Assembly: GCF_044324875.1 (NCBI RefSeq)
Contig: NZ_CP172185.1
From: Escherichia coli
GTDB taxonomy: Bacteria > Pseudomonadota > Gammaproteobacteria > Enterobacterales > Enterobacteriaceae
Strand: one strand, 5' to 3'
DNA: 64,000 bases
Of this stretch, positions 15,521 to 64,000 are shown piece by piece (position 1 is the first letter of the stretch; every line of letters begins with the position of its first letter). The notes below the pieces were generated by a model. It was not told the DNA's origin. It saw only the letters and a program-made list of their open reading frames with translations, and did no database searches. A program made the position numbers and the translations under genes.

Positions 15521-15714
15521 TCTGATTAATTTAATATATTCAATAAGTTATGTGTTAACTGGATTCTGAACGGTACAAAAATGATGGTCATTAACGTTCA
15601 GCAAAAAATGAATTCGACACCCGTGTCGCAGGGGAAAGCGAGAATGTGATCTTGATCACGAGAAGTGAGGTGTGCTGACCGCAAGCGCAGCCAGCACGGA
15701 ATGGAGCAAAGTAA

Positions 15715-60225: not shown

Positions 60226-61527
60226 TTACTGCTTTAACGCCGCATACACCTGATCAACCACCCAACCATAAGTTGCAATCGGCAACTGACCGCTTTCGAA
60301 CATATTGGGATTCTTTTGTGGATCGGCAACTGGCGAATGTGGCTTGTTGCTTAACATCACAATCGCCATATGATTCACCGGATCGATAACGGTCACCGTC
60401 CCGGTCCAGCCAGTGTGACCGTAGGTTTGCGGGCTTGCCAGCGTGCCAAACGTCGGCGTCATGGTGGCATTACCATTCACGCGCCAGCCAAGGCCAAAAG
60501 TGGCATCTTCCTTAGAGCTGGTGGTGAACATCTTCACCGTTTCTGCATTGAACAGCTGCACATCGCCATAGCCGCCGCCGTTCAGCATCGTTTGCATTAA
60601 CACCGCAATATCGCCGGTATTGGAAAACAAACCTGCGTGCCCGGAAACGCCGCCCATCGAATAAAAGGCTTTTTCATCGTGCACCTGACCCCAGAGAGTG
60701 GAGGTGCGGATATTCGGGAAATGGATCACGCCATCGCGGGTATTGCCGTTGAGTTCCGTGGCGGCAATTTGTTGCGGTTTAAAGCCTTTCAGCAGCGGAT
60801 TAAATACCGTGTGCGTCAGGCCGAGCGGGCGATAAATCGACTCTTCAACATAGCGGTCAAGTGGCTGACCGGTAACCGACTCGACGATAAATCCAAGCAG
60901 CATATAATCGACATCGCTGTAGATATGCTTGCTGCCGGGCTGATACTCCAGCGGCGTGCGCTTGATCATCTCCAGCGTCTGGCCTTTATCCTGGGAATAT
61001 AACGCGCCCGCGACCGCTTTATTCGGGTATTGCGGATCTGCCGGGAAACCGCCGCTGTGATGCAGCAGGTCAGAAATCCGCAGCGTGTTTTTGCCTTTGA
61101 TGGTGTCATTTGGACTATCGGCAAATCCCGGAATATATTTCGCAATCCGATCGTCAGGATGCAGCTTGCCTTCGCTCATCAGCTTTTGCAGCGCGAAGTT
61201 AGTGGCGTACATCTTGGTGTTTGAGGCCAGATCATACAGCGTCCCGGTGGTGGCTTTTACAGGCTGCGCCATTAACGCGCTGCCATCGTACTTTTTCGCC
61301 GCGCCCCAGGCTTTGCGATAAACAATCTGATTATCTTTTATAATCAGCAGGTTTACTCCCGGATAACCGGCATCCACCTGCTGGCTTATCCAGCGATCCA
61401 TCTGGTTAAGCCGTTCGACGTTAAACCCTGCTTTCTCTGGCGAACTTTCTGTCAGAACAGGGTATTTTGCGGCGCTGACGCTACAGCTAATAGCCAGCAG
61501 AGAAAGATAGAGCATTGTCCGTTTCAT
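60226..61527 (-). CDS. yfeW: Penicillin-binding protein 4B / putative D,D-carboxypeptidase YfeW (class C beta-lactamase fold)
   Basis: 433 aa; signal peptide and active-site SNTK (SxxK) motif. Confidence 0.92.
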   Translation of the reverse strand: MKRTMLYLSLLAISCSVSAAKYPVLTESSPEKAGFNVERLNQMDRWISQQVDAGYPGVNLLIIKDNQIVYRKAWGAAKKYDGSALMAQPVKATTGTLYDLASNTKMYATNFALQKLMSEGKLHPDDRIAKYIPGFADSPNDTIKGKNTLRISDLLHHSGGFPADPQYPNKAVAGALYSQDKGQTLEMIKRTPLEYQPGSKHIYSDVDYMLLGFIVESVTGQPLDRYVEESIYRPLGLTHTVFNPLLKGFKPQQIAATELNGNTRDGVIHFPNIRTSTLWGQVHDEKAFYSMGGVSGHAGLFSNTGDIAVLMQTMLNGGGYGDVQLFNAETVKMFTTSSKEDATFGLGWRVNGNATMTPTFGTLASPQTYGHTGWTGTVTVIDPVNHMAIVMLSNKPHSPVADPQKNPNMFESGQLPIATYGWVVDQVYAALKQ

Positions 61528-61529
61528 AA

Positions 61530-62954
<1,425 letters not shown>

Positions 62955-62957
62955 GGG

Positions 62958-63854
62958 TTATTCCTTTTCCAGAGCTTTGCGAATAAAGCCGCCGTGTTGA
63001 TCCAGGCGTTTTTTAGCTTCTGCGGCATCGAGATTTTTCAGCACCATCACAATGGCCGTTTTACAGTTGCGCTCGCAGGCAACCAATGCCGCTTCCGCTT
63101 GCTCTGCGCTACATCCGGTAGCGTTTTTGACGATATTGACCTGGCGCACATGCAGTTTTTCGTTGGTGGCGACCACATCGACCATCAGGTTGCCGAACAC
63201 TTTGCCGGATTTAATCATCAGCCCGGTGGAAAGCATATTGAGCACCAGTTTCTGCGCCGTGCCTGCTTTCATTCGCGAAGAACCGGTGACTACTTCGGCA
63301 CCTACAATCGGTGTAATGGCAAACTCTGCGGTGGTTGAAACGGCGCTCCCCGGATTACAGGAAATTCCCACTGTGCGGCAGCCGAGCTGGCGCGCGTATT
63401 CCAGTCCGGCAATCACATACGGCGTGCGTCCGCTGGCCGCAATCCCAACCACCACATCCTGTGCCGTTAAATTAATATTTTTTAGATCGTTAACACCACC
63501 TTCCCGGCTATCTTCCGCGCCTTCCACCGCGTGCTGAATGGCATATTCGCCGCCAGCAATCAAACCAACTACCAGGCCCGGTTTCACGCCGTAGGTCGGC
63601 GGACATTCACTGGCATCAAGAATACCCAGACGACCAGAGGTCCCCGCACCGATGTAAATCAGACGGCCGCCGCCGCTCACCTGGGCGTGAATAACATCGA
63701 TCGCCGCTGCAATATCCGGCAGTACGCGCTCAACGGCGAGTGGTACGGTTTTATCTTCATCGTTGATAATCCGGCACATTTCCAGCGTCGAAACGCGGTC
63801 AATTTCAGCCGAGGCGGCATTCGAGCCTTCGGTAATCATCTTTTCAAGTTGCAT
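62958..63854 (-). CDS. murQ: N-acetylmuramic acid 6-phosphate etherase (SIS domain)
   Basis: 298 aa; 3-bp gap to murP (murQP operon). Confidence 0.95.
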
Positions 63855-63957
63855 CGGTGGTGACCTTACTATTTACGATCAAATAATTGCAGATGTATGG
63901 AATCATATATCCCGAATTGACAGACTTAAAGGAATCATTGAGTCTACACTCGCAGAG

Positions 63958-63973
63958 TGTGAAGAGCGTCATA
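63958..63973 (-). promoter_or_regulatory. Candidate CRP site upstream of murQP
   Basis: TGTGAagagcgTCATA, one mismatch to the CRP consensus TGTGA-N6-TCACA, about 105-120 bp upstream of murQ ATG in the murQ-murR divergent region. Confidence 0.4.
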
Positions 63974-64000
63974 AGAACTTAAGCGGAATTTTTGCTGCCA

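What the first reader, a model, noticed from the sequence alone, without database searches (positions are those of the whole stretch)
63855..64000. CRP-like site in the murQ-murR divergent control region at the window edge
TGTGAagagcgTCATA lies about 105-120 bp upstream of murQ, consistent with cAMP-CRP activation of the MurNAc catabolic operon murQP. The divergent repressor gene murR would start beyond the window end, so the control region is truncated here.
Basis: partly seen in the sequence, partly recalled or inferred. Interest (0 to 1): 0.25.

Follow-up and report, generated by a model that had tools for sequence, protein, structure and literature searches.

The report
Known CRP site controlling murQ operon

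Summary
TGTGAAGAGCGTCATA lies at 63958-63973, 104-119 bp upstream of the murQ start codon (63854, minus strand). It matches TGTGA-N6-TCACA at 9 of 10 positions. About 0.004 such matches are expected by chance in the 146-bp intergenic stretch.

The window is E. coli. This stretch differs from K-12 at 2 of 146 positions and is identical to O157:H7. murR starts 18 nt past the window end in relatives, so only 17 bp of the 163-bp control region are missing.

Comparison supports function. Between Escherichia and two Citrobacter genomes the intergenic region is about 50% identical, yet 9 of 10 half-site bases are kept, only 1-2 of 6 spacer bases are, and the distance to the conserved TATGAT -10 element changes by 1 bp. 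That places CRP near -70.5, a class I activator position.

CRP/CAP control of murQP is published (Jaeger & Mayer 2008). I could not read that paper here.

Verdict: already known, low interest.

In passing: 1047 of 5426 complete E. coli genomes (Nissle, LF82, ST131) and E. albertii carry an ~870-bp deletion removing this site and murR. A weaker CRP-like sequence sits at exactly the same position at the junction.

The parts
63958..63973 (.). cAMP-CRP (CAP) binding site. It reads TGTGAagagcgTCATA on the + strand and TATGAcgctctTCACA in murQ orientation. The perfect half-site faces the murQ promoter. Centre at 63965.5.
   Evidence: 9/10 match to consensus. Identical in K-12. 9/10 half-site columns are invariant across 7 murR-bearing Escherichia and Citrobacter sequences, against 1/6 spacer columns; it is the only register in the region with that property.
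63902..63907 (-). Inferred murQ promoter -10 hexamer TATGAT (5/6 to TATAAT). The transcription start is inferred at about 63895 (+/-1).
   Evidence: Read directly from the sequence. It lies inside the 13-nt block ATATATGATTCCA that is invariant in Escherichia and Citrobacter. The CRP centre lies 58.5 bp from its first T in Escherichia and 57.5 bp in Citrobacter. The start site was not verified here.
63925..63930 (-). Inferred weak -35 hexamer TTTAAG (3/6 to TTGACA), 17 bp upstream of TATGAT.
   Evidence: Read from the sequence. It is not conserved in Citrobacter. A poor -35 fits an activator-dependent promoter. This is inference.
63922..63945 (.). Candidate MurR operator 1: imperfect inverted repeat AGACTTAAAG-gaat-CATTGAGTCT (8/10), centre 63933.5. 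It overlaps the inferred -35.
   Evidence: Found. It contains GGAATCAT, one copy of the 32-bp-spaced direct repeat, and the invariant block AGACTCAATGATTC. The repeat alone is not significant against shuffles. The assignment to MurR is inferred.
63892..63911 (.). Candidate MurR operator 2: imperfect inverted repeat GATGTATG-gaat-CATATATC (7/8), centre 63901.5. It overlaps the inferred -10 and both inferred transcription starts.
   Evidence: Found. It holds the second GGAATCAT copy and the invariant block ATATATGATTCCA. The assignment to MurR is inferred.
63860..63887 (+). Candidate murR promoter (GTGACC, 16 bp, AATAAT). It faces the murQ promoter, with a start near 63894. The murR leader would then run through the CRP site.
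   Evidence: Consensus scan, 9/12. Conserved within Escherichia but not recognisable in Citrobacter. This is inference.
62958..63854 (-). murQ, MurNAc-6-phosphate etherase; first gene of the regulated operon.
   Evidence: 298-aa ORF. Annotated murQ under the match in RefSeq E. coli genomes.
61530..62954 (-). murP, MurNAc-specific PTS IIBC transporter; second gene of the operon.
   Evidence: 474-aa ORF. murP holds the same position in SC418 and K-12.
60226..61527 (-). yfeW / pbp4B; third gene of the operon.
   Evidence: 433-aa ORF. Annotated so. PMC5061867 describes a three-gene murQ operon.

Best explanation
The 16-bp sequence at 63958-63973 is the cAMP-CRP (CAP) binding site of the E. coli murQ-murR divergent control region. 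When glucose is scarce, cAMP-CRP binds here, about 70.5 bp upstream of the murQ transcription start. From that class I position it would recruit RNA polymerase to a weak promoter (TTTAAG, 17 bp, TATGAT), presumably through the polymerase alpha C-terminal domain. That promoter drives murQ-murP-yfeW. Activation only yields high expression once the repressor MurR leaves two operators that overlap the -35 and the -10/start regions, which happens when MurNAc-6-phosphate is present. These operators are centred 32 and 64 bp from the CRP centre. The murR promoter appears to face the murQ promoter, so the murR transcript must cross the CRP site. Bound CRP therefore probably also lowers murR expression. 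Shown here: the sequence match, its position, and its conservation pattern. Taken from the literature: CRP and MurR dependence of murQP. Inferred: the exact transcription starts, the operator assignment, and the effect on murR.
For: The site matches the CRP consensus at 9/10, with about 0.004 expected by chance in the intergenic stretch. The intergenic DNA is identical to K-12 at 144 of 146 positions, and the site itself is identical. In phylogenetic footprinting, K-12 and Citrobacter share only 79/160 and 83/160 intergenic positions, yet the half-sites are kept at 9/10 and the spacer at 1-2/6. This is the only one of 148 registers with 9/10 invariant half-site columns. The distance from the CRP centre to TATGAT is 58.5 bp in all Escherichia loci and 57.5 bp in Citrobacter. 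[quoted passage not shown] MurR binds repeats in the murR-murQ intergenic region and represses both murQP and murR (PMC9177960). CRP activation of murQP is shown experimentally in Vibrio cholerae, at a -41.5 site (PMC10328515). I found the corresponding TGTGATTATTATCACC upstream of murQ in the Vibrio and Grimontia loci and a related TGTGATTTTCATCACT in Enterovibrio. From my own memory of the Jaeger & Mayer abstract, not verifiable here: a class I CAP site, face-to-face promoters, and CAP acting as a roadblock for murR transcription. All three agree with the anatomy derived above.
Against: I could not read the primary paper. That this exact 16-mer is the published CAP site therefore rests on it being the only good match in the region and on geometry. 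The transcription start is inferred from a -10 match, not measured. A second promoter-like match exists (TTCACA, 18 bp, AATGAT), and PMC3141248 says murQ is reported to have multiple promoters. One half-site is imperfect (TATGA). The inverted repeats I assign to MurR are not significant on their own.
Confidence: 0.9

Rival explanations
1. The site is a chance match with no function.
For: About 1.8 matches of this quality are expected per 64 kb. Three of the five in the window lie inside ORFs that are probably genes.
Against: Only about 0.004 are expected in this 146-bp stretch. The half-sites are conserved while the spacer and flanks diverge, and the distance to the promoter is fixed. CRP control of this operon is published.
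Confidence: 0.02
2. The site is bound by FNR rather than, or as well as, CRP, and mediates anaerobic induction of murQP.
For: murQP showed FNR-dependent expression in Shigella flexneri RNA-seq (PMC4229854). FNR and CRP sites share the TGA-N6-TCA core. The alternative haplotype TTTGA...TCACA (L003, L004, L008, Citrobacter) has one FNR-type TTGA half.
Against: By my own count on the sequence, the window's site matches TTGAT-N4-ATCAA at only 6/10. The conserved promoter-proximal half is GTGA, the CRP-specific form, in every sequence. A position near -70.5 is unusual for FNR activation, which is typically at -41.5 (general knowledge). The Shigella effect may be indirect.
Confidence: 0.04
3. CRP bound here works on a different murQ promoter. 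The promoter-like TTCACA (63963-63958), 18 bp, AATGAT (63939-63934) uses the CRP half-site as its -35. CRP would then sit at about -38.5 and act as a class II-like activator or as a repressor of that promoter.
For: The scan finds this match at 9/12. Both hexamers fall in conserved blocks. murQ is said to have multiple reported promoters.
Against: Both hexamers are conserved for other reasons: one is the CRP half-site and the other lies in the operator block. A centre at -36.5 to -40.5 is off the canonical -41.5. An 18-bp spacer and an AATGAT -10 are weak. My recollection of the primary abstract says class I.
Confidence: 0.08
4. The main role of the site is to control murR rather than to activate murQ: CRP would block elongation through the murR leader, or activate a murR promoter.
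For: The site lies 45-60 bp upstream of the murR ATG. It lies downstream of the only promoter-like match on the + strand.
Against: This does not exclude murQ activation. The constant spacing to the murQ -10 across genera argues that the murQ promoter is the constrained partner. The literature lists CRP as a regulator of murQP.
Confidence: 0.1

Closest known systems
The cAMP-CAP site of the E. coli K-12 murQ promoter (Jaeger & Mayer 2008, J Bacteriol 190:6598)
   Same: Same locus, same gene order (murQ-murP-yfeW, with divergent murR in relatives), and an identical 16-bp sequence. The surrounding 146 bp differ at 2 positions.
   Different: Nothing of substance. The murQ coding sequence of this window is a divergent, mosaic allele (94.4% identical to K-12), but the control region is not.
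Class I CRP-dependent promoters such as lac P1 (-61.5) and malT (-70.5); positions from general knowledge
   Same: A single CRP site lies upstream of a promoter with a weak -35. It sits a roughly integral number of helical turns from the start (about -70.5 inferred).
   Different: The start site is inferred, not mapped here. The promoter is embedded in a face-to-face arrangement with the promoter of its own repressor gene.
Vibrio cholerae murQP promoter (PMC10328515)
   Same: The same operon is activated by CRP, as shown by EMSA, footprinting, and in vitro and in vivo transcription. A near-consensus site also lies upstream of murQ in the Vibrio, Grimontia and Enterovibrio loci.
   Different: In Vibrio the site is class II (-41.5) and overlaps a HapR site. 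In Escherichia it is about 29 bp further upstream, and the co-regulator is the repressor MurR.

Membership tests
CRP (CAP) binding site | Match to the palindromic consensus TGTGA-N6-TCACA with a 6-bp spacer | tested here: met
   9/10 at 63958-63973. The G of GTGA is kept in the promoter-proximal half in all murR-bearing relatives.
CRP (CAP) binding site | Conservation of the half-sites, but not the spacer, in orthologous control regions | tested here: met
   Half-site columns are 9/10 invariant and spacer columns 1/6, while overall Escherichia-Citrobacter identity is about 50%.
CRP (CAP) binding site | Physical binding of cAMP-CRP (EMSA, footprint or ChIP) | not testable with these tools
   Reported for this region by Jaeger & Mayer 2008 according to my memory. 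The paper is not held. It is cited as the source for 'CRP, MurR' regulation in PMC3141248.
Class I CRP-activated promoter | Site centred near -61.5, -71.5, -82.5 or -92.5 relative to a mapped transcription start | tested here: inconclusive
   The centre is 58.5 bp from the first T of the conserved TATGAT, which gives about -70.5 if that hexamer is the -10. The start was not mapped here.
Class I CRP-activated promoter | Transcription dependent on crp and cAMP | not testable with these tools
   From the literature only.
murQ-murR MurNAc divergon | murQ-murP(-yfeW) operon with a divergently transcribed RpiR-family murR | tested here: inconclusive
   The operon genes are present. murR itself lies outside the window. 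It is present 163 bp from murQ in K-12, SC418, L005 and L006, which share this intergenic haplotype. 1047 E. coli genomes lack it, but their intergenic DNA differs from the window's.
FNR binding site | Match to TTGAT-N4-ATCAA | tested here: not met
   6/10 by direct comparison with the sequence. The conserved half is GTGA, not TTGA.

The most novel reading that the evidence does not exclude
The window's own site holds nothing new. The most novel reading that my evidence allows concerns the locus across the species. About a fifth of complete E. coli genomes (1047 of 5426, including Nissle 1917, LF82 and O25b:H4-ST131) and the E. albertii type strain carry one shared ~870-bp deletion. It removes this CRP site together with almost all of murR. 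At the junction a new CRP-like sequence, TGTGATGTCACTGAAA (8/10), is centred at exactly the same 111.5 bp from murQ, although its TGTGA derives from murR coding DNA. This would be a natural rewiring from 'repressor plus CRP' to 'CRP only' control of cell-wall sugar catabolism, kept by selection.
Probability: 0.3. Interest if true: 0.4.

Novelty: already known. Interest (0 to 1): 0.1.

Why it matters
For this window it matters little. It confirms that a raw-sequence reader can recognise a textbook regulatory site, and it gives exact coordinates for the elements of a published control region. That region links catabolite control (cAMP-CRP) with substrate induction (MurR and MurNAc-6-phosphate) of peptidoglycan-sugar catabolism. 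The comparison adds independent support that the half-sites and their spacing to the promoter are under selection from Escherichia to Citrobacter. CRP control of murQP also recurs in Vibrio with a different architecture. The side observation would matter more if followed up: a widespread natural deletion of murR and this site in strains such as Nissle 1917, LF82 and ST131 predicts constitutive or CRP-only MurNAc utilisation in those lineages.

Tried and rejected
- Reading the primary paper. I tried by DOI, PMC id and PubMed id and it is not held. The class I and roadblock statements therefore rest on my memory of its abstract.
- Published coordinates of the site or the transcription starts. 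No supplements are held for PMC9177960 or PMC3141248. Five further full-text searches gave no positions.
- A search for 'murR' plus 'roadblock' returned only unrelated papers.
- Exact-seed inverted-repeat search found nothing. A relaxed script found the two imperfect repeats, but at a rate no higher than shuffles. I present them as candidates supported by conservation, not by symmetry.
- FNR reading: rejected on a 6/10 match and the conserved GTGA half.
- Chance match: rejected on the conservation pattern.
- Salmonella arizonae (L009) and Citrobacter Res13 (L018) could not be used for footprinting. In both, murQ follows another gene and there is no divergent murR next to it.
- Rahnella, Psychromonas and Gilliamella showed no comparable site and were not pursued.

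Full report
**What is in the sequence.** The last 146 bases of the window (63855-64000) lie upstream of a 298-aa ORF on the minus strand, 62958..63854. RefSeq E. coli genomes annotate the matching gene as murQ. It is followed by murP (61530..62954) and pbp4B/yfeW (60226..61527).

It spans 104-119 bp upstream of the murQ ATG, centred at 111.5 bp.

Sites of this quality occur 5 times in the window against 1.77 expected from shuffles. One such site somewhere in 64 kb would mean little. Only about 0.004 are expected in this 146-bp stretch, and no other match of 8/10 or better exists within 400 bp upstream of murQ in loci with this haplotype.

**Where the window comes from and what is cut off.** The window is E. 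coli. A 4-kb stretch elsewhere is 99.2% identical to E. coli genomes. The 146-bp intergenic stretch is 100% identical to O157:H7 and other strains, and 98.6% identical to K-12.

In K-12 and in isolate SC418, murR starts 163 bp from the murQ ATG, which corresponds to window coordinate 64018. Only 17 bp of the control region are lost, carrying the murR ribosome-binding region.

**Test by comparison.** One scan of GTDB species genomes with MurQ gave 32 loci. tblastn with K-12 MurR shows a divergent murR next to murQ in six Escherichia-type loci, in two Citrobacter loci, and at about 42% identity in Vibrio and Enterovibrio.

- **Escherichia and Citrobacter.** In every Escherichia and Citrobacter locus with murR, a 9/10 CRP match is centred exactly 111.5 bp from the ATG. 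The forms are TATGACGCTCTTCACA, TTTGACGCTCTTCACA and, in Citrobacter, TTTGATTG(T/C)CCTCACA.
- **Half-sites versus spacer.** K-12 and Citrobacter share only 79/160 and 83/160 intergenic positions. The half-sites are kept at 9/10 and the spacer at 1-2/6.
- **Uniqueness.** Of all 148 possible 16-mer registers, this is the only one with 9 of 10 half-site columns invariant across the seven sequences. Conserved half-sites around a free spacer are what a dimeric protein site should show.
- **Other invariant islands.** These are AGACTCAATGATTC, ATATATGATTCCA, the murQ Shine-Dalgarno TAAGG, and a short GCAGCA block near murR.

**Anatomy and mechanism.**
- **murQ promoter.** The island ATATATGATTCCA contains TATGAT (63907-63902, minus strand), a 5/6 match to the -10 consensus. 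A weak TTTAAG lies 17 bp upstream.
- **CRP position.** The CRP centre is 58.5 bp from the first T of TATGAT in all Escherichia loci and 57.5 bp in Citrobacter. If TATGAT is the -10, the start is near 63895 and CRP sits near -70.5, a class I position.
- **Candidate MurR operators.** The two islands each carry GGAATCAT, repeated 32 bp apart. Each sits in an imperfect inverted repeat with a 'gaat' centre: AGACTTAAAG-gaat-CATTGAGTCT (63922-63945) and GATGTATG-gaat-CATATATC (63892-63911). Their centres (63933.5 and 63901.5) and the CRP centre (63965.5) are evenly spaced by 32 bp, about three helical turns. I take them to be the two MurR operators, covering the -35 and the -10/start. PMC9177960 states that MurR binds two neighbouring repeats in this intergenic region and represses both murQP and murR. 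The repeats alone are not significant against shuffles, so this assignment is inferred.
- **murR promoter.** The only promoter-like match on the + strand is GTGACC, 16 bp, AATAAT at 63860-63887. That would start murR transcription near 63894, facing the murQ promoter, and send the murR leader through the CRP site.

**Literature.** Three held papers cite Jaeger & Mayer 2008, whose title names MurR and catabolite activator protein as the regulators of MurNAc catabolism. One of them lists murP as regulated by 'CRP, MurR'. I could not open that paper.

From memory, its abstract reports four things: a class I CAP site upstream of the murQ promoter, two adjacent inverted repeats as the MurR operator, face-to-face murQ and murR promoters, and CAP as a probable roadblock for murR transcription. 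The anatomy I derived independently agrees with all four. The match of coordinates is not verified.

In Vibrio cholerae, CRP activates murQP from a -41.5 site, as shown by EMSA, footprinting and transcription assays. I see the corresponding TGTGATTATTATCACC about 72.5-73.5 bp upstream of murQ in the Vibrio and Grimontia loci. A related TGTGATTTTCATCACT lies 79.5 bp upstream in Enterovibrio. CRP control of this operon therefore recurs with a different architecture.

**Rivals.**
- **Chance.** Excluded by the conservation pattern.
- **FNR.** murQP is FNR-dependent in Shigella RNA-seq, and one haplotype has a TTGA half. The window's site matches the FNR consensus at only 6/10, and the invariant half is GTGA.
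- **A second promoter.** TTCACA, 18 bp, AATGAT would place CRP near -38.5. Its hexamers are conserved for other reasons, but murQ is said to have multiple reported promoters, so I leave this some weight.

**Verdict.** Observation confirmed and interpretation supported. The feature is an already characterised regulatory site in a model organism. Interest is low.

**Noticed in passing.**
- **Frequency of the deletion.** murQ is present in 5425 of 5426 complete E. coli genomes, but murR in only 4378.
- **Extent of the deletion.** In Nissle 1917, murQ is followed directly by ucpA. blastn shows a deletion of about 870 bp. It runs from about 91 bp upstream of murQ to about 58 nt before the murR stop codon, so the CRP site is removed too.
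- **Who carries it.** The junction is found in 1047 genomes, including LF82 and O25b:H4-ST131. The same junction is present in the E. albertii type strain.
- **A new site at the junction.** TGTGATGTCACTGAAA (8/10) is centred again at 111.5 bp from the ATG. By my binomial estimate the chance of an 8/10 match at one fixed position is about 4e-4. No held paper combines murR, murQ and phylogroup.

Noticed in passing
Locus L035 (E. coli Nissle 1917) 1201-1479; L007 (E. albertii) upstream of 2001; corresponds to window ~63945 onward: 1047 of 5426 complete E. coli genomes (Nissle, LF82, O25b:H4-ST131 and others) and the E. albertii type strain share an ~870-bp deletion. It removes the K-12-type CRP site and almost all of murR, leaving murQ next to ucpA.
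   Followed up: partly
L035 1304-1319: At the deletion junction, TGTGATGTCACTGAAA (8/10 to the CRP consensus) is centred exactly 111.5 bp from the murQ ATG and 58.5 bp from TATGAT, as in intact strains. Its TGTGA derives from murR 3' coding sequence. E. albertii has TGTGGCGTCGCTGAAA (7/10).
   Followed up: partly
window 62958-63854 versus 63855-64000: The murQ coding sequence is a mosaic, divergent allele: 87-100% identity per 100 nt to other Escherichia, at best about 97-98% to any complete E. coli genome, and 94.4% to K-12. The adjacent intergenic region is 100% identical to many E. coli genomes. This suggests recombination within murQ and strong constraint on the control region.
   Followed up: partly
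window 63991-63998 (+ strand TTTGCTGC): A short block (GCAGCA in murQ orientation) 20-27 nt upstream of the murR start is invariant from Escherichia to Citrobacter, although its surroundings diverge. Its function is unknown.
   Followed up: no
L010 and L011 (Citrobacter), about 20-40 bp upstream of murR: Citrobacter has an extra perfect inverted repeat, GGAATCAAAAATTCC, next to murR. It carries the same GGAATC motif as the two candidate MurR operators and may be a third operator.
   Followed up: no
window 15645-15660: The second good CRP-like site in the window is TGTGATCTTGATCACG (9/10). It lies in the bcp-hyfA intergenic region, upstream of hyfA, with a sigma-54-like TGGCAT-N6-TGCA further downstream. 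It probably belongs to the hyf operon control region.
   Followed up: partly
window 63958-63973 versus L003, L004, L008, L010, L011: The distal half-site comes in two forms, TATGA and TTTGA. The latter has the TTGA core typical of FNR sites, and murQP is reported as FNR-dependent in Shigella flexneri.
   Followed up: no
L009 (Salmonella enterica subsp. arizonae), L018 (Citrobacter sp. Res13): Here murQ sits directly behind another gene in the same orientation, with no divergent murR next to it. The divergon architecture is therefore not universal in enterics.
   Followed up: no
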